From assembly GCF_030013595.1 (NCBI RefSeq), contig NZ_CP122768.1: a stretch of DNA of 64,000 nucleotides; one strand, 5' to 3'. Position 1 is the stretch's first letter. Each line of letters opens with the position of its first letter. Shown in pieces: positions 32,001-38,000 of the stretch. The stretch comes from Escherichia coli. GTDB lineage: Bacteria; Pseudomonadota; Gammaproteobacteria; Enterobacterales; Enterobacteriaceae. Position numbers: made by a program.

Positions 32001-35000
32001 TAACGCTCGAGAAAGGGCAATATCCGTTAACGATGAAAGTTTCAGAAATAAACAGTAAAAAAGTCGCGATTTTGATGAAAATTGACGATATCAATCAGGC
32101 TAATGAACGCTGGAAAAAAGATACCGAACAATTGCGGCGCAATGGAGTGATTAAGTAACTCATGTTAAGTACCTTTGCCGGATAATATAAAAAGTTATCC
32201 GGCAAATTATTTTTTACATTAGCCCTAGTAGCTGTGGAATGAACAAGGATATTTGCGGGATGTAAGTGATCATCATCAACGTGATTAACAATGCGGCATA
32301 AAATGGCAGCAATGGTTTGATCAAATGTTGAATCTTCACACCTGAAATAGAACAACCAACAAATAGCGCACTACCCACCGGCGGTGTTAACAGCCCAATA
32401 CAAAGGTTGGCCACCATCATAATACCGAAATGTACCGGATCCATTCCCAGCTCTTGTGCAATCGGCAAGAAGATTGGTGTGAAGATTAGTACAGCCGGTG
32501 TCATGTCCATAAAGATGCCGACAATTAATAAGACGATATTAATCAGCAGCAATATGACCAGTGGGTTATCAGAAATCCCCATCAACGCGTCGCTGATCAT
32601 ATAAGGAATATCAGCATTGGTCATTGCCCAGGACATGCCCACGGAAAAACCGATCAACAGTAATACAATCGAAGTGGTAACAACCGATTCCAGAATCAGT
32701 TTGGGTAAATCGCGCCATTTTACTTCCCGGTAAATCAGCACCGAGAGAATAAATGTGTAGACAACGGCAATTGCTGACGCTTCAGTTGCGGTAAAAATGC
32801 CGCCCAGAATGCCGCCCATTACAATGAACACCAGAAGCAAACTTGGTAAGGCATCCAGAAACGCTTTACATGCTTGAGCAAAGGTTGCTCTTTCTGAAAG
32901 TGGGTAGCCACGGCGTTTAGCAATAATGCCGCAGACTATCATTACCGCGAGACCCATTAAGATCCCTGGCAAATATCCCGCCATAAATAGCGATGCTACA
33001 GAAACGCCGCCAGCTGTCAGGGAAAACACAATTAACACGTTTGAGGGCGGTATCAGTAATCCAGTAATACAAGATGAGACGTTTACAGCGGTAGAAAATG
33101 CCGGATCATAACCTTCTTTGGTCTGAATGGGATTCAGTGTGCCACCAACGGCAGCAGCTGCCGCAACGGCTGAACCAGAAATGGAACCAAACATCATATT
33201 CGCCAGGACGTTCACATGACCAAGCGAACCAGGAACGCGGCCAACCATTACCTGGGCGAGGTTAATCAAACGTATCGCAATACCGCCGCTGTTCATCAGC
33301 GTTCCGGCAAAGATGAAAAAGGGGATTGCCAATAGGGCAAAGTTATCCAGTCCATTAGCCAGTCGCTGCGAAACAGTGATTGCCGCGATATCCCAGGGAA
33401 ACATCAAAAGCATTGAAGCTACAGTGGCAATACCGATTGAGAACGAAATGGGCACACCAATAAAGACCAGCACAAAAAAACAGCCAAACAGTGTAATCGC
33501 GATATAACTATCCATTAACTGGCCTCCTGCGCAGGTTGTTTCAGTTGTTGAATGCTTTGATTAATAAAACACAAGGCATAAAACATCATCACCAATCCAC
33601 TTAATGGCAGAATGATATATACGTATCCCATCGGTATTTGCATCGCGGCAGATACCTGTGATGTTGCCAGTGTTTTATCAATTAATTTCAGGCCACCAGT
33701 CACAATGACCGAACCGGTAAAACCTAAAATAAGAACGTTAATGACTATACTAAGAAGTAATTGCTTGCGCTTATTCAGGGCGAGAGCAAATAAATCGATA
33801 GAGAGATGTCTCTGCGCGCCGACGGTATATGCAGCACCTAATAATCCTACCCAGATCATCAAAAAGCGTGCCAGCTCATCGGTTAATGTACTTGGCTGGT
33901 TAAGTACGTAGCGGCTAAATACTTGCCAGACTACGCATACAACCAGAGCAAGCATTACGGCGACAGAAAACGCGGCAATGACGCGGTCTACCGCAATTTT
34001 CAGGCGGTTAAATATCATTGTAAGCATCCTGGAAAATCAGGGCCAGAGACTGGCCCGAAATATTATTGAGCAGCGTTGTCGAATTTCTCTAACAAAGCAG
34101 CTTGTTTTGGATCTTTTTTGAAGTCGTCAAACAGAGGTTGAACTGCGGCACGGAATGGGGCTTTATCAACCTTAACGATTTCACCACCCATAGCTTTCGC
34201 TTGAGCACGTGTGTCAGCGTCAATTTTTTCCCACAATTTTTGTTGATAAGCTTCGGATTTCTTCGCCGCTGTTTCGAGGATTTGTTGCTGTTCTGGGGTT
34301 AATTTATTCCATGTTTTGGTGGAGATAACCAAAAAGTCAGGAATTGAGGCATGTTCATCTTCAGAAAAGACTTTGGCAATTTCGATATGTCGAGTCTGCA
34401 CCCAGGAAGGCACGTTATTTTCTGCGCCATCTACTACACCTTGCTGCATCGCAGTATAAACTTCGCCAAATGAAATTGGAGTGGGTGAGCCACCCATCAG
34501 TTCAATCATTTTGATGGTGGTCGGGCTTGGCTGAACACGAATTTTCAGCCCTTTAAGATCTTCTGGCTTAGTAATCGGTTTTTTCGCATAGAAACTACGT
34601 GTACCCGCTACATAAGCTGATAAAGCAAAAAAGCCTTTATCTTTTGTTGAATCCATAATTTCTTTACCAACTTCACCAAAAACCACTTTGTTGAAGTGCG
34701 CCTGATCTTTAAATAAGAACGGCAAATTATAGATAGCATAAATATTATCAAAAGACTCCAGATCACTGGCGGAACCTTTGGTCATATCCAGTGCACCATT
34801 TTGCAACAACTCCATAGTTTCTCGCGCATTACCCATCTGGCTGCAGGGGTAAATACGGATCACCATATTACCTTTTGACAGCTGTTTTACTTCTTTCGCC
34901 AGCTCTTCAAAACTCTGATGTACAACATGACTTCTTTCCAGGTTGTGTGCTAACTTTAACGTCACTTTTTCTGCGGCGTTTACGCCAGTGCTAACCAGAG

Positions 35001-38000
35001 CCAGCAAGGATGCGCAGACTAATGAGCGGGTAAATGACCTCATTTTCATAAAAAAACTCCCTGTTGAAGAATGGAAATTGGTTGATATCTAATTGTGCTT
35101 ATCAGTGCTTTGTGCGACAAATTGGTTAACCTGTCTGACAACTTGTCTATGTTTATCACAACTTGAAATAAAGTCAGAAATTAAATATTAATTTTGTGCG
35201 CCAGGTTGTACATGTTTATAATCAATAAATGATGAGTAAATATTCACTAAATATATATAATAAATATCGTCGATATTTATTCAGTAAGAAATATATTTTT
35301 TCCGAAGTTAATTAACGGGGGGGTTAAAAGAAGTGATTAATGCGCCCGCAGGCGCATTAATGATTACTCAGCGAGGAATAATTCAAGAAGTGAGTTTAAG
35401 AATAATTTACCATGCTCGGTTATCTGCCAGTAATCCGCACATTCTGTGAGATAACCTTGAGCGATAGCCTCGTCTAACTGAGAGCGAATAACTTCTTCAG
35501 AAAGGCCAGTATATTGGCTAAACTCCACGCGCGGCGCGGCCTCAAGCAGACGGAAGCGATTCATAAAGAACTCAAACGGTTTATCTGCAGCTTCGACATC
35601 ACGCTGGCTTTCCAGATATCTTCCCTGCATAAAACCACGCGGATGACGCGTTTTGGTGGTACGCAGAATGCGACCATCCGGGAAGGTGACTTTGCCGTGC
35701 GCGCCGCAGCCAATACCAATGTAGTCGCCAAATCGCCAGTAGTTGAGATTGTGCTGGCACTGATAACCTGGTTTGGCGTAAGCGGATGTTTCATACTGCT
35801 GATAGCCCGCTGCGGTTAATAACTGATGCCCCTGTTCGAATATATCCCACAACGCATCGTCGTCCGGCAGTACCGGCGGGCGAGAGCCAAACAGCGTATT
35901 AGGTTCGATGGTCAGTTGATACCAGGAAAGATGCGGCGGATTCAGTTCAATAGCCTGGCGCAGATCGCCAAGCGCCTCTTCCAGTGATTGATCCGGCAGC
36001 CCATGCATCAAATCAAGGTTAAAACTACGCAGCCCCAGCCCGCTTGCAAGTTTTGCCGCTCGTTTCGCTTCTTGCGGGCCATGAATGCGCCCAAGTCGTT
36101 TCAGCTTTTCTTCGCTAAAACTCTGCACACCAATAGAGATGCGGTTCACACCAGCACGCTGATAATCAACAAAGCGATTGGCTTCTACCGTACCAGGGTT
36201 CGCTTCCATAGTAATTTCTGCATCCGCTGCCAGCGGCAAACGCGCACGCACGCCGTCCAGCAGCGTTTGCATCGCCGGGCCGGAAAGCAGGCTCGGCGTA
36301 CCACCGCCAATAAAGATTGTCTGCACTTCACGGCCCTGAGCGTAAGCCACATCGTTGTCCAGATCGTTAAGCAGATGCTGAACATAATCGTCGTGCGGCA
36401 CTTCTCCTTTCAACGCGTGAGAGTTGAAATCGCAGTACGGGCATTTCTGCACGCACCACGGGATGTGAATGTAGAGACTCAGCGGCGGTAATTTAACCAT
36501 TACGTAAAGCGTCCAGCAGCAGTTTCAATGCCTGACCACGGTGGGAAATGGCGCTCTTTTCTTCGCGGGTCAGTTCGGCAGCGGTTTTCCCTTCGGAAGG
36601 TACGAAGAAGATTGGATCATAACCAAAACCACCAGTGCCCGCTGGTTCACGAGTAATCACGCCCGGCCAGCTACCGTGGCACACCAGCGGAGTCGGATCT
36701 TCCGCGTGACGCAGATATACCAGCACGCAGTGGAAACGTGCCTGACGTTGGTCGTCCGGTACGTCTTTCAGTGTTTCCAGCAATTTTTGCAGATTCTTTT
36801 GATCGGTCGCGTCTTCACCGGAATAACGCGCGGAGTAAATTCCCGGCGCGCCACCAAGCACATCTACCGCCAGGCCAGAGTCGTCGGCAATTGCCGGTAA
36901 ACCGGTCACTTTTGCCGCATGGCGCGCTTTCAGAATCGCGTTTTCGATAAAGGTCAGGCCGGTTTCTTCAGCGGAATCTACACCGAGGTCTGTTTGGGCC
37001 ACGATATCAAGACCGAAGTCGCTAAGCAGCGACGCCAGCTCACGCACTTTACCGGCATTGCCGGTTGCGAGGACAACTTTTTGCATAGGATACCTAATTA
37101 ATTAACGCCGCGATTTCTGGCGGGATTTGTTGCGGATTAATGATTTTAATTTGTTTGTGGCGGCCAAGTTCGCCTTTTTCAATCACCACCTGGCTTTTGG
37201 CAACCCGGAATTGCTTACCGAGAAACTTCACCAGATGGCTGTTGGCCTGGCCGTCAACCGGCGGCGCGGTTATGGCGACTTTTACCTCGTCGCCATGTAA
37301 ACCGACAATAGAATCACGGCTGGCTTTCGGCTGAATATAAAGCCGTAAAACCAGACCGTCATCATTAACTGTTACGGCACTCATAACGCCATCCACAGCC
37401 CCGGCAGCAGCATATTTCCGGTCGCCTGCAAGACTTCTGCGACACCCATATTGATGACATACAGCAGCAGAACGAGGATCATCGGCGAGAAATCAATCCC
37501 ACCCATTGCCGGTAGCAGGCGGCGAATCGGGCGCAGCAGTGGATCGGCCAGCTGAATCAGCACGTATTCAATCGGGCTACGACCCTGGCTTACCCAGCTC
37601 ATAATCGCCATCACCAGCAGGACCCAGAAAATCAGCAGGCCGATGGTTTTCAGCAGAATCAATAAACCGGCAATCCAGATGATTGGCAGGAAGGTCACCA
37701 CTTTAAACAGCACGATGGCTTTAATGAAACTGAGAATGTACGCAACCAGCAGCGAGGCGCTATCAATGGGTCCCATTGCCGGAATAACGCGGCGCAGTGG
37801 CCCGATAATCGGCTGCGTTACCTTCACTACAAACTGTGAGAAGGGGTTGTAAAAATCACAATGAGCCCACTGCATCCAGATGCGTAATAACAGCACCATG
37901 GTATACAGCTCAATGACCGTTGAAAGCAGGAAAGTCAACGTATTCATGGCGTTCCTTTAATTCCTTATTTTTTAGAGTAATCACGCGCACCAAAAATTGC

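What the first reader, a model, noticed from the sequence alone, without database searches (positions are those of the whole stretch)
32214..35363. TRAP transporter operon between yggM and hemW, a junction I recall as empty in K-12
A complete three-gene TRAP system (DctP-like binding protein, DctQ-like small permease, DctM-like large permease) with its own AT-rich upstream region sits between two genes that I recall as adjacent in K-12. The substrate cannot be inferred from sequence alone.
Basis: partly seen in the sequence, partly recalled or inferred. Interest (0 to 1): 0.4.

Follow-up and report, generated by a model that had tools for sequence, protein, structure and literature searches.

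The report
Hexuronate-type TRAP transporter operon lost from K-12
This is an intact three-gene TRAP uptake system, most likely for the sugar acids galacturonate and glucuronate and switched by the ExuR repressor; it is an old resident of this chromosomal site in enteric bacteria that K-12 and about 73% of complete E. coli genomes have lost, so it is ordinary, though untested in E. coli.

Summary
Window 32214-35363 holds dctP (328 aa), dctQ (167 aa) and dctM (433 aa) on the minus strand. A 314-bp AT-rich leader lies downstream of the hemW terminator. In K-12 MG1655, hemW and yggM are adjacent, separated only by 154 bp of REP sequence.

It is not a K-12-relative insertion. The order hemW-dctPQM-(yggM/ansB)-yggN recurs in Citrobacter, Klebsiella, Kluyvera, Pseudocitrobacter, Phytobacter and some Salmonella. 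Protein identities there track those of the flanking core genes. So K-12 carries the derived, deleted state. Of 5426 complete E. coli genomes, 1460 (27%) keep the operon, under strong purifying selection (dN/dS 0.01-0.09 for dctP and dctM).

The substrate can be inferred:
- The binding protein's closest solved relatives bind glucuronate or galacturonate.
- 60%-identical homologues in Aeromonas and Pantoea take the place of exuT in a uxaCBA/exuR cluster.
- Two operator boxes 21 bp apart are conserved in 33 taxa. Their best K-12 matches lie at uxaB and exuT/uxaC, the ExuR regulon.

The best reading is a high-affinity, ExuR-repressed hexuronate TRAP transporter. No binding, transport or regulation has been tested. 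Databases name the proteins only generically. Interest is low.

The parts
34063..35049 (-). dctP-type periplasmic solute-binding protein, 328 aa. It has a Sec-type signal peptide ending VNA|AEK. Candidate ligand residues are N36, L37, A75, R76, E77, R151, R171, N211 and D238.
   Evidence: ORF. PF03480 at 9.5e-84 and TIGR00787 above cutoff. Best solved relatives are 4ovr, 4n15, 4mhf, 4x8r and 4n91. R151, R171 and D238 are invariant in the family alignment and N211 is nearly invariant. dN/dS is 0.011-0.028.
34040..34056 (-). G+C-rich hairpin (7 pairs, 6 of them G-C) followed by TGATTTTCC, between dctP and dctQ. It is probably a partial terminator or mRNA stabiliser that raises binding-protein output over the membrane subunits.
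   Evidence: Terminator-like site. The function is inferred. Herman et al. note that the binding protein is usually made in excess.
33515..34018 (-). dctQ small membrane subunit, 167 aa from the conserved start MIFNRLK. An in-frame ATG 9 nt upstream (34027) would give 170 aa.
   Evidence: ORF. PF04290 at 6.5e-30. RefSeq aa in strains TUM1886 and O111. The same start occurs in Salmonella. Its stop overlaps the dctM start by 1 nt.
32214..33515 (-). dctM large membrane subunit, 433 aa.
   Evidence: PF06808 at 3.8e-121, covering positions 1-413 of 413; TIGR00786 scores 474 bits against a cutoff of 268. It is 93-95% identical in Klebsiella, Kluyvera and Salmonella. dN/dS is about 0.08.
32174..32206 (+). 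Hairpin with a 13-pair stem and a T-run in the 55-bp yggM-dctM spacer. It is the yggM terminator and sits at the convergent 3' end of dctM.
   Evidence: sequence.
35336..35361 (-). hemW terminator-like hairpin (ATTAATGCGCC...GGCGCATTAAT followed by CACTTCTTTT). It separates hemW transcription from the TRAP operon.
   Evidence: The hairpin is also present in Salmonella.
35128..35144 (-). Operator box C, AAGTTGTCAGACAGGTT (core TGTCAGACA at 35140-35132). It is proposed as the distal ExuR operator.
   Evidence: Conserved as aAGaTGTCnGACAAC in 33 taxa. It scores 17.9 on the family matrix. The best K-12 matches to that matrix are at uxaB and exuT/uxaC. It is identical in four E. coli alleles.
35119..35131 (-). 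GGTTAACCAATTT, an Escherichia-specific UxuR/ExuR-type element between boxes C and D.
   Evidence: The same 13-mer lies in the K-12 gntP-uxuA intergenic region (L056 3461-3473), the spacer that purified UxuR binds (PMC5934670). It matches 13 of 18 positions of the validated UxuR site AAATTGGTATACCAATTT (PMC8092373). It is not conserved outside Escherichia and is only modestly rare (5 sites of this quality in 64 kb).
35107..35123 (-). Operator box D, AATTTGTCGCACAAAGC (core TGTCGCACA at 35119-35111). It is proposed as the proximal ExuR operator, exactly 21 bp from box C.
   Evidence: The consensus in other genera is AAtATGTCATACAGAAA. The 21-bp start-to-start spacing is invariant in 33 taxa. The core TGTATGACA (reverse strand) is identical to the K-12 exuT box.
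35156..35160 (-). Conserved TGTGA, a possible CRP half-site upstream of box C.
   Evidence: Conserved in nearly all 33 taxa. The K-12 exuT promoter and the Aeromonas/Pantoea TRAP promoters have TGTGATGG(C/T)TCTCA(C/A) just upstream of their box. The second half-site here is poor, so this is a weak inference.
35073..35090 (-). Conserved promoter-proximal block AGATATCAACCAATTTCC. It is a possible -10 region and/or a further half-operator.
   Evidence: Conserved as AGATAT(n)nACCA in most genera. It resembles the K-12 uxaC-proximal sequence TTATCACACCAATTTCCAG. The function was not tested.
35192..35204 (-). Conserved block A, CTGGCGCACAAAA, about 150 nt upstream of the start codon. Its role is unknown.
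   Evidence: Conserved as CAGCGCACAAAA across genera. It is unexplained.
35057..35061 (-). Shine-Dalgarno sequence GGGAG, 7 nt before the dctP ATG (35049-35047).
   Evidence: Sequence. GGA is conserved in all taxa.
31151..32158 (+). yggM (DUF1202), the left flank.
35364..36500 (-). hemW (radical-SAM heme chaperone), the right flank. It contains a recombination breakpoint near 35797.
   Evidence: Compared with strain HCP5S3_I2 there are no mismatches from 35797 to at least 60000, but 54 mismatches in 35364-35796.

Best explanation
[quoted passage not shown] The secreted DctP-type protein captures the sugar acid through its carboxylate (R171, with R151 and N211). It delivers the ligand to the DctQ-DctM membrane unit, which imports it using an ion gradient. 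The cell's core UxaC/UxaB/UxaA and UxuB/UxuA pathway then degrades it. Transcription starts in the 314-bp leader downstream of the hemW terminator. It is repressed by the GntR-family repressor ExuR (possibly also UxuR in E. coli) at two boxes 21 bp apart, is induced by hexuronates, and is probably helped by CRP. The system would act as a high-affinity partner to the MFS transporter ExuT. In evolutionary terms the operon is an old resident of the hemW-yggN interval of Enterobacteriaceae. K-12 and most E. coli have lost it, and presence or absence now moves between strains by homologous recombination of the flanks. Shown: gene content, intactness, synteny, purifying selection, operator conservation and the K-12 matches. 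Inferred: ligand, repressor, inducer and energy coupling.
For: Anatomy: all three subunits give full-length family matches, dctQ and dctM overlap by 1 nt, and the operon has its own leader after the hemW terminator.

Ligand:
- The best sequence matches in the PDB are 4ovr, 4n15/4n17, 4ln5, 4mhf/4mij, 4x8r, 4n91, 4n8y and 4xfe (E 1e-67 to 4e-58). The next cluster starts at 1e-42 and SiaP at 1e-39.
- The same set leads the fold search (TM 0.82-0.85; model pLDDT 82).
- 4N91 binds D-glucuronate and 4MHF binds glucuronate and galacturonate (PMC7660916). 4N8Y binds galacturonate and 4X8R binds glucuronate (PMC11668362).
- In Aeromonas rivuli and Pantoea sp. IMH, 60%-identical homologues lie in ygjV-uxaA-uxaB-uxaC <-> dctPQM -> GntR/FCD regulator. 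This is the K-12 arrangement ygjV-uxaA-uxaC <-> exuT -> exuR with the TRAP genes in place of exuT.
- These homologues share N36, L37, R76, E77, R151, R171, N211 and D238 with the window protein.

Regulation:
- 33 taxa, including four genera where the operon sits at other loci, conserve two boxes with invariant 21-bp spacing.
- A matrix built only from non-Escherichia boxes finds 4 sites scoring at least 15.5 in 232 kb of K-12 DNA, against 0.79 expected from shuffles.
- The top site (20.6) is upstream of uxaB. Two others lie in the uxaC-exuT spacer and in the 5' end of uxaC.
- The dgo, lgo, rsp, uid and uxu regions give no hit at or above the reporting threshold of 14 (in the first scan, the best site in any of those stretches scored 13.2 at L062:23001, near the hsdM/hsdR boundary and not at a promoter).
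- exuT, uxaC, uxaB and uxaA are the genes repressed by ExuR (PMC8612250).

Function retained: dN/dS is 0.011-0.085 for dctP and dctM within E. coli, and 0.026 for dctP against Salmonella.

Ancestry:
- hemW-dctPQM synteny holds in Citrobacter (5 genomes), Klebsiella (8 species), Kluyvera (7 species), Pseudocitrobacter, Phytobacter, Salmonella and an Escherichia sp. genome. Pluralibacter has the same gene set but with ansB lying between hemW and dctP.
- Identities parallel the flanks: Salmonella DctP 90 / HemW 90 / RdgB 94%; Klebsiella variicola 87 / 89 / 92%.

Recombination: the window is identical to strain HCP5S3_I2 to the right of 35797, yet that strain has the empty junction.
Against: - No binding, uptake or expression data exist for this orthologue group. 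I found none in the papers searched, and public databases name the proteins only generically.
- Identity to the solved hexuronate binders is only 34-38%.
- Two of the seven ligand-contact positions reported for the glucuronate binder STM3169 differ here: Gln36 is L37 and Glu74 is A75.
- In E. coli and the other syntenic genera, no catabolic or regulatory gene is adjacent.
- The K-12 DNA scanned was 232 kb chosen to include sugar-acid loci, not the whole genome.
- The strongest K-12 match lies 222 nt upstream of the uxaB start codon, at the end of dgcF, and I could not read a paper giving experimentally mapped ExuR operator sequences.
- The CRP site has only one good half.
- The promoter scan found no consensus sigma-70 promoter.
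Confidence: 0.7

Rival explanations
1. The operon is a working TRAP transporter co-regulated with the exu genes, but its true ligand is a different sugar acid rather than free galacturonate or glucuronate. Candidates are a ketouronate (tagaturonate or fructuronate), an unsaturated or 4-deoxy uronate from polysaccharide lyases, L-iduronate, guluronate or mannuronate, or a hexonate.
For: The pocket differs from the glucuronate binders at two reported contact positions: L37 for Gln and A75 (or P75) for Glu. Identity to the solved hexuronate binders is only 34-38%. In Mangrovibacter the operon lies next to a heparinase II/III / alginate-lyase-like protein and a sodium:solute symporter. STM3169 itself gave a thermal shift with D-galactonate.
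Against: The 60% homologues that carry the same L37 and small-residue-75 pocket replace exuT beside uxaC-uxaB-uxaA. That is the free-hexuronate pathway. ExuR-type boxes imply induction by the hexuronate pathway. The Mangrovibacter context is a single case.
Confidence: 0.15
2. It is a C4-dicarboxylate (succinate, fumarate, malate) DctPQM system, or a copy of the K-12 YiaMNO 2,3-diketo-L-gulonate system, as generic database names suggest.
For: Some sources label cluster members 'putative C4-dicarboxylate transport system binding protein'. The family names are DctP/Q/M. The YiaN and YiaM equivalog models give weak hits.
Against: The YiaN equivalog scores 296 bits against a cutoff of 800, and YiaM scores 38 against 260. 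Solved C4-dicarboxylate DctP proteins (9dsy, 9dtl, 9ht3) match at only 1e-31 to 1e-33, against 1e-67 for the hexuronate group. No DctBD or sigma-54 elements are present, and the operators are of the GntR type.
Confidence: 0.03
3. The operon is a recently acquired foreign islet in some E. coli lineages, a true insertion relative to an ancestrally empty junction, rather than an ancestral locus lost from K-12.
For: Its GC content is 44% against 53% for rdgB-hemW. It is present in only 27% of complete E. coli genomes. It is absent from O157:H7 Sakai, ATCC 25922 and K-12. The GTDB scan returned no E. albertii, E. fergusonii or S. enterica representative genome. The empty junctions hold no recognisable remnant of the operon.
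Against: The position and orientation after hemW are identical in more than 25 species of at least 6 other genera, and identities parallel the flanking core genes. The operon is GC-poor relative to its flanks in every genus, yet its GC rises with host GC, from 44% to 53%. E. coli alleles differ by up to 5% (dS 0.07-0.30), which means long residence in the species. There is no integrase, IS element, tRNA or meaningful direct repeat at the borders. A natural homologous-recombination breakpoint inside hemW switches the state between otherwise identical strains.
Confidence: 0.12
4. The operon is a decaying, unexpressed relic in E. coli.
For: It has been lost from most of the species. There is an IS1 insertion in dctP in one strain and a truncated copy in another (H77 and H89). 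Only fragments are recorded from Shigella. No consensus promoter was found.
Against: All three reading frames are intact in the window and in the alleles examined. dN/dS is 0.01-0.09 for dctP and dctM across alleles differing by 2-5% in DNA. The operators and Shine-Dalgarno sequence are conserved within E. coli.
Confidence: 0.05

Closest known systems
STM3169-STM3171 of Salmonella Typhimurium LT2, a D-glucuronate TRAP transporter (Herman et al. 2020, PMC7660916)
   Same: It is an enterobacterial three-gene dctPQM operon with no adjacent catabolic genes. Its binding protein belongs to the hexuronate group and was modelled on 4N15, the window protein's second-best PDB match. The pair of arginines, the Asn and the Asp are shared (R151, R171, N211, N36 and D238 here). 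It is proposed as a high-affinity partner of ExuT.
   Different: It is a different locus and a different protein. The window's Salmonella orthologue (90% identical, next to hemW) does not fit the published mass of tagged STM3169. It also has L37 and A75 where STM3169 has Gln36 and Glu74. STM3169 expression is reported as ppGpp/SsrB-dependent, whereas ExuR-type operators are found here. I could not obtain the STM3169 sequence, so the percent identity was not measured.
EFI (Enzyme Function Initiative) hexuronate-binding TRAP solute-binding proteins (Vetting et al. 2015): 4OVR, 4N15/4N17 (Bamb_6123), 4MHF/4MIJ (Bpro_3107), 4N91 (Apre_1383), 4N8Y, 4X8R, 4XFE
   Same: These are the best sequence matches (E 1e-67 to 4e-58) and the best fold matches (TM 0.82-0.85; 34-38% identity). 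They share the carboxylate-binding Arg and the R/N pair. Their ligands are glucuronate and/or galacturonate according to PMC7660916 and PMC11668362.
   Different: They come from alpha- and beta-proteobacteria and a Firmicute, and identity is only about 35%. The Glu in the 'GSEKD' loop is Ala here ('GNARE'). Ligands of 4OVR, 4XFE and some others are from my memory of the PDB titles. The tool output truncates the titles and the Vetting paper is not held.
ExuT, the MFS hexuronate:H+ symporter of E. coli (exu regulon)
   Same: The proposed substrate and repressor are the same. The promoter architecture is similar: TGTGA followed by a TTGTnnGACAA-type box. In Aeromonas and Pantoea the TRAP genes occupy exuT's place between uxaC and exuR.
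   Different: It is an unrelated protein family: a single-component MFS carrier without a binding protein. It is part of the E. coli core genome, whereas the TRAP operon is variable.
YiaMNO, the 2,3-diketo-L-gulonate TRAP transporter and the only TRAP system of K-12
   Same: It has the same three-component family, and its substrate is also a sugar acid.
   Different: It is a distant paralogue. The YiaN and YiaM equivalog models score far below their cutoffs (296 against 800, and 38 against 260). It has a different locus and gene order.
DctPQM of Rhodobacter capsulatus (the founding TRAP system, C4-dicarboxylates), SiaPQM (sialic acid), and GaaPQM of Agrobacterium (galacturonate)
   Same: They share the overall architecture and mechanism. 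GaaPQM is a genetically characterised galacturonate TRAP system (cited in PMC5812351).
   Different: The ligands differ for DctP and SiaP, and their matches are weaker (1e-31 to 1e-39). GaaP was not compared here because no sequence was available.

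Membership tests
TRAP transporter, DctP type (TC 2.A.56) | Periplasmic family-7 solute-binding protein with a signal peptide | tested here: met
   PF03480 at 9.5e-84; TIGR00787 at 283 bits against a cutoff of 175. The N-terminal hydrophobic leader ends VNA|AEK. The model has the two-domain SBP fold, with TM 0.82-0.85 to solved TRAP SBPs.
TRAP transporter, DctP type (TC 2.A.56) | Conserved arginine that binds the ligand carboxylate | tested here: met
   R171 is invariant in 17 homologues and aligns with the Arg of 4ovr and 4n15. It corresponds to Arg170 of STM3169.
TRAP transporter, DctP type (TC 2.A.56) | Small (DctQ) and large (DctM) membrane subunits encoded with the binding protein | tested here: met
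   PF04290 at 6.5e-30 and PF06808 at 3.8e-121, both full length. The gene order is P-Q-M, and the Q stop overlaps the M start.
TRAP transporter, DctP type (TC 2.A.56) | Binding-protein-dependent, ion-gradient-driven uptake | not testable with these tools
   This needs transport assays.
Hexuronate-binding TRAP SBP group (STM3169; EFI glucuronate/galacturonate cluster) | Closest relatives are proteins solved or measured with glucuronate or galacturonate | tested here: met
   The top 9 PDB sequence matches and the top fold matches belong to this group. Ligands for 4N91, 4MHF, 4N8Y and 4X8R are taken from papers.
Hexuronate-binding TRAP SBP group (STM3169; EFI glucuronate/galacturonate cluster) | The seven ligand-contact residues listed for STM3169 (Asn35, Gln36, Glu74, Arg150, Arg170, Asn210, Asp237) | tested here: inconclusive
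   Five of seven are kept (N36, R151, R171, N211, D238). Gln36 is L37 and Glu74 is A75. The paper notes that Bpro_3107 also uses alternative residues. The 60% homologues in uxa clusters share the L37 and small-residue-75 variant.
Hexuronate-binding TRAP SBP group (STM3169; EFI glucuronate/galacturonate cluster) | Genomic association with hexuronate catabolic genes | tested here: met
   This is not so at the E. coli locus. It is so for the 60%-identical homologues in Aeromonas rivuli and Pantoea sp. IMH, which have uxaC, uxaB, uxaA, ygjV and a GntR/FCD regulator alongside.
Hexuronate-binding TRAP SBP group (STM3169; EFI glucuronate/galacturonate cluster) | Measured binding of D-glucuronate or D-galacturonate | not testable with these tools
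   This needs purified protein.
ExuR (exu) regulon of Enterobacteriaceae | Operator sequences of the type found at ExuR-controlled promoters | tested here: met
   Two boxes are conserved in 33 taxa. A matrix trained without Escherichia sequences gives its best K-12 hits at uxaB (20.6), the exuT/uxaC spacer (16.5) and the uxaC 5' end (15.8), with 0.79 hits of at least 15.5 expected by chance. Caveat: only 232 kb of K-12 was scanned, and I could not read a source giving mapped ExuR operator sequences.
ExuR (exu) regulon of Enterobacteriaceae | Derepression in an exuR mutant or by hexuronates; ExuR binding in vitro | not testable with these tools
   This needs expression and binding experiments.
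Genomic island / mobile insertion | Integrase, transposase, tRNA target or flanking direct repeats | tested here: not met
   Only the three transporter genes lie between the yggM and hemW stop codons. The repeats at the borders are 14 nt at 86% identity, which is chance level. The tRNA-Phe at 20285-20360 is 12 kb away and belongs to a different island.
YiaMNO equivalogs (2,3-diketo-L-gulonate) | Score above the NCBIfam equivalog cutoff | tested here: not met
   NF011634 scores 296 against 800, and NF007374 scores 38 against 260.

The most novel reading that the evidence does not exclude
The binding protein's altered pocket (Leu for Gln, Ala for Glu) could mean the system takes up a uronate other than free glucuronate or galacturonate, for example a host- or diet-derived unsaturated or epimeric uronate. 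Its presence/absence in E. coli could be a long-lived polymorphism kept by niche-dependent selection and shuffled by recombination within hemW. In that case carriage (e.g. ST131, O111, O103) would mark a real difference in gut or urinary-tract nutrition.
Probability: 0.12. Interest if true: 0.45.

Novelty: new member of a known kind. Interest (0 to 1): 0.25.

Why it matters
The importance is modest. About a quarter of complete E. coli genomes carry what looks like a second, binding-protein-dependent and presumably high-affinity route for hexuronates. Carriers include EC958 (from memory, an ST131 strain), O111:H- 11128, an O103:H2 strain and a strain named ST648. K-12, O157:H7 Sakai and ATCC 25922 lack it. 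Galacturonate comes from pectin and glucuronate from host glucuronides, both relevant to gut colonisation. The paralogous Salmonella system has been linked to survival in macrophages (PMC7660916). The locus is also a clean example of K-12 being the derived state. An 'extra' gene set relative to K-12 can be an ancestral enterobacterial operon that K-12 lost, with the two states exchanged by recombination in flanking core genes. Finally, it yields a testable addition to the ExuR regulon that K-12-based regulon databases cannot contain.

Tried and rejected
1. Is the protein STM3169? I computed monoisotopic masses of tag plus mature protein for the three Salmonella orthologues and the window protein. 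None fits the published 35,741.96 Da (smallest difference 19-20 Da), and positions 36/37 and 74/75 differ. It is therefore a paralogue. I could not retrieve the STM3169 sequence to measure identity.

2. A 'decayed remnant' of dctQ in strain BS-04 (H90) looked like proof of deletion. The stretch is full of long homopolymer runs, so it is probably an assembly artefact, and I did not use it.

3. Counting mismatches to the UxuR consensus does not discriminate well. Five sites reach 13/18 in the 64-kb window, and a matrix built from six K-12 sites ranks the TRAP site only fifth. The top hits at 46936 and 46990 lie inside metK. The stronger evidence came from the cross-genus footprint instead.

4. 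A full CRP site: only the TGTGA half is conserved.

5. The promoter scan found no consensus sigma-70 promoter on the correct strand of the leader.

6. Flanking direct or inverted repeats as insertion scars: only short, chance-level matches.

7. Remnants of the operon in the empty junctions of K-12, ATCC 25922 and 2009C-3554: none, only REP-type sequence.

8. Neighbourhoods in Buttiauxella, Edwardsiella and Enterobacillus gave no substrate clue.

9. Papers I wanted were not held: Vetting 2015, Suvorova 2011 and Bates Utz 2004. PDB titles in the fold search were cut off before the ligand name.

10. A 2026 paper on strain BEN2908 mentions a TRAP system, but it lies in a different genomic region with regulators.

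Full report
**Observation**

The interval 32214-35363 holds three consecutive minus-strand ORFs:
- 34063-35049, 328 aa
- 33515-34027, 170 aa (167 aa from the conserved start at 34018)
- 32214-33515, 433 aa

They match Pfam DctP (9.5e-84), DctQ (6.5e-30) and DctM (3.8e-121, positions 1-413 of 413). They also match the TIGRFAM dctP and dctM subfamily models. The flanks are yggM (31151-32158, +) and hemW (35364-36500, -).

Other features of the transcription unit:
- The 314-bp leader is 33-39% GC.
- The leader begins after a hemW terminator-like hairpin at 35361-35336.
- A 13-pair hairpin with a T-run (32174-32206) closes yggM at the convergent end.
- A G+C-rich hairpin (34056-34040) lies between dctP and dctQ.
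- The dctQ stop overlaps the dctM start by 1 nt.

**K-12 and the species**

In MG1655, hemW (b2955) and yggM (b2956) are adjacent, with 154 bp between them. That gap, the 68-bp gap of ATCC 25922 and the 242-bp gaps of O157:H7 Sakai and 2009C-3554 are REP-type palindromes. They show no similarity to the operon or its intergenic DNA.

Distribution among the 5426 complete E. coli genomes:
- 1460 (27%) carry the whole operon at this site.
- 32 more have partial matches, including an IS1 insertion in dctP and a truncated copy.

Carriers include EC958, a strain named ST648, O111:H- 11128 and an O103:H2 strain. RefSeq annotates the genes only as 'TRAP transporter' subunits. The exact binding-protein sequence is in NCBI under that generic name or as 'putative C4-dicarboxylate' binding protein. 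No NCBIfam equivalog model covers it.

**Insertion or loss?**

Contigs encoding 87-90% identical binding proteins in Klebsiella variicola, Kluyvera and a minority of Salmonella enterica show the same order. That order is yggT-yggU-rdgB-hemW-dctP-dctQ-dctM, followed by yggM-ansB-yggN or directly by yggN.

A scan of one genome per species returned 44 loci. A tblastn check of synteny gave these results:
- hemW-linked arrangement: five Citrobacter genomes, eight Klebsiella species, seven Kluyvera species, Pseudocitrobacter, Phytobacter, two unclassified Enterobacteriaceae and 'Escherichia sp. MOD1-EC7003'. Pluralibacter has the same gene set but with ansB lying between hemW and dctP.
- Other loci: Buttiauxella, Edwardsiella, Mangrovibacter and Enterobacillus.

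TRAP protein identities track the flanking core proteins:

| Genus | DctP | DctM | HemW | RdgB |
|---|---|---|---|---|
| Salmonella | 90% | 95% | 90% | 94% |
| K. pneumoniae | 88% | 93% | 89% | 91% |
| C. amalonaticus | 93% | 95% | 93% | 93% |

Further points bearing on ancestry:
- The operon is GC-poorer than rdgB-hemW in every genus, but its GC rises with host GC, from 44% in E. coli to 52-53% in Klebsiella and Kluyvera.
- Borders carry no integrase, IS element or real repeats.
- E. coli alleles differ by up to 5% in DNA.

I conclude that the operon is ancestral at this site and that the K-12 junction is a deletion. The evidence rests on outgroup synteny. No deletion scar survives.

**A recombination breakpoint**

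The window is 100% identical to pig isolate HCP5S3_I2 from 35797 to at least 60000. Yet that strain has the empty junction. The two differ at 54 positions in the last 433 bp of hemW and by 2.2% further left.

The left part of the window, about 30000-36300, is essentially identical to the carrier strain TUM1886. So the TRAP+ and TRAP- states are exchanged by homologous recombination with an end point inside hemW. The 3' end of hemW is unusually diverse in all E. coli comparisons, at 87-95% identity.

**Is it functional?**

All frames are intact in the window, O111, TUM10828, Salmonella and K. pneumoniae. Selection is strongly purifying:

| Comparison | Gene | dN/dS |
|---|---|---|
| Window vs O111 | dctP | 0.011 (24 synonymous, 1 non-synonymous change) |
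| Window vs TUM10828 | dctP | 0.028 |
| Within E. coli | dctM | 0.077-0.085 |
| Window vs Salmonella | dctP | 0.026 |

**Substrate**

Sequence search of the PDB puts a single group on top: 4ovr, 4n15/4n17, 4ln5, 4mhf/4mij, 4x8r, 4n91, 4n8y and 4xfe, at E 1e-67 to 4e-58. SiaP and C4-dicarboxylate DctPs come much lower, at 1e-39 and 1e-32.

An AlphaFold model (pLDDT 82, pTM 0.79) gives the same ranking by Foldseek, with TM 0.82-0.85 and 34-38% identity.

Ligands confirmed from papers:
- 4N91 binds D-glucuronate, and 4MHF binds glucuronate and galacturonate (PMC7660916).
- 4N8Y binds galacturonate, and 4X8R binds glucuronate (PMC11668362).
- The group is the 'D-glucuronate/D-galacturonate' cluster of Vetting et al. 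(PMC5812351).

Ligands of the remaining entries are from my memory of their PDB titles.

The enterobacterial precedent is STM3169-71 of S. Typhimurium, which binds D-glucuronate with a KD of about 0.2 µM. The window protein is not its orthologue, for three reasons:
- It lies at a different locus.
- The published mass does not fit.
- L37 and A75 replace Gln36 and Glu74, while N36, R151, R171, N211 and D238 are kept.

Gene context helps at 60% identity. In Aeromonas rivuli and Pantoea sp. IMH the operon is flanked by divergent uxaC, a mannitol-dehydrogenase-family gene (uxaB), altronate dehydratase (uxaA) and ygjV. A GntR/FCD regulator follows it. This is the K-12 arrangement ygjV-uxaA-uxaC <-> exuT -> exuR with the TRAP genes in place of exuT. 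Those homologues share the L37 and small-residue-75 pocket variant, so the variant is compatible with a hexuronate role.

**Regulation**

Aligning 200 nt upstream of dctP from 33 taxa shows four conserved blocks:
- CAGCGCACAAAA, about 150 nt upstream of the start codon
- TGTGA
- box C, aAGaTGTCnGACAAC
- box D, AAtATGTCATACAGAAA

A proximal AGATAT..ACCA block is also conserved. Boxes C and D are exactly 21 bp apart in every taxon, including those with the operon at unrelated loci. Their TGT-N3-ACA form is that of FadR-type GntR operators.

I built a matrix from the non-Escherichia boxes only and scanned 232 kb of K-12. That DNA included the exu, uxu, dgo, lgo, rsp and uid loci.
- Four sites scored at least 15.5, against 0.79 expected from shuffles.
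- The top site (20.6, AGATGTCAGACAACT) equalled the best score seen in 200 shuffles (20.59). It lies upstream of uxaB.
- Two more sites lie in the uxaC-exuT spacer (AGTTGTATGACAAGT) and in the 5' end of uxaC.
- The fourth lies in the yneL pseudogene.

exuT, uxaCA and uxaB are the ExuR-repressed genes (PMC8612250).

The K-12 exuT promoter and the Aeromonas/Pantoea TRAP promoters share the layout TGTGATGG(C/T)TCTCA(C/A), then the box.

E. coli alleles also carry GGTTAACCAATTT between the boxes. This is identical to a 13-mer in the gntP-uxuA spacer that UxuR binds. It matches 13 of 18 positions of the validated UxuR site. The element is Escherichia-specific, and a match of this quality occurs about once per 13 kb.

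I infer ExuR repression, possibly with UxuR input in E. coli, and probable CRP dependence. The transcription start is unknown.

**Verdict**

This is an intact, selected, generically annotated but uncharacterised member of the hexuronate TRAP transporter group. It is most likely part of the ExuR regulon. It is ancestral to the hemW-yggN interval of Enterobacteriaceae and has been lost from K-12.

Two things are not: the implied direction of the event, and the claim that the substrate is not inferable.

It is a new member of a known kind, and interest is low (0.25). What remains open:
- which hexuronate it prefers
- whether the L37/A75 pocket changes specificity
- whether the presence/absence polymorphism is selectively maintained

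Noticed in passing
window 1-20360: To the left of a tRNA-Phe gene (20285-20360, minus strand) the window carries about 20 kb that strain HCP5S3_I2 lacks; that strain has glc, sslE and gsp genes there instead. The best matches in other E. coli are annotated as a BREX-1 defence system (brxC, pglX, pglZ, brxL) plus a phosphoethanolamine transferase. This looks like a pheV-type island.
   Followed up: partly
window 35364-35796 (3' part of hemW), breakpoint near 35797: The window is identical to pig isolate HCP5S3_I2 (NZ_CM149870.1) from 35797 to at least 60000. It has 54 mismatches in the last 433 bp of hemW, and that strain lacks the TRAP operon. The left side (about 30000-36300) matches TUM1886 instead. 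The source genome is therefore a recombinational mosaic, and no complete genome in the collection matches the whole window.
   Followed up: yes
window 35100-35700: The 3' end of hemW and the TRAP leader form a diversity hot spot in every E. coli comparison, carriers included (87-96% identity per 300 bp, against 97-100% nearby). Synonymous divergence of dctP between E. coli alleles is 0.12-0.30, high for this species. The cause is unknown; it may be old haplotypes or import from divergent lineages.
   Followed up: partly
window 35192-35204: The block CTGGCGCACAAAA (CAGCGCACAAAA in other genera) is conserved about 150 nt upstream of dctP in more than 30 taxa. No regulator is assigned to it.
   Followed up: no
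L009 (E. coli BS-04, NZ_CP172819.1) 3694-4394: The yggM-hemW gap of this assembly holds fragments of dctQ among long poly-T, poly-C and poly-G runs, and is annotated as a frameshifted TRAP pseudogene. It looks like an assembly artefact rather than a natural decay intermediate.
   Followed up: partly
L063 (K-12) 20682-20917 and L055 6583-6597: The K-12 uxaB upstream region has a perfect family-type box (AGATGTCAGACAACT) 222 nt upstream of the start codon, at the end of dgcF. It also has two weaker boxes about 22 bp apart next to the start codon. Another box (AGATGTCATACAGGT) lies about 150 nt inside the uxaC coding region. They may be auxiliary ExuR operators.
   Followed up: no
L043 (Mangrovibacter yixingensis) 1275-5619: Here the orthologous TRAP operon lies next to a heparinase II/III / alginate-lyase-like protein and a sodium:solute symporter. 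This hints at a link to uronates released from polysaccharides.
   Followed up: no
window 46936-47007: The UxuR-type matrix gives its best window scores here, but the sites lie inside the metK coding sequence. These are chance matches.
   Followed up: yes
cluster of the window's binding protein: Shigella flexneri and S. sonnei records hold only 70-196 aa fragments of this protein, on contigs under 800 bp. This suggests the operon is disrupted in Shigella.
   Followed up: no
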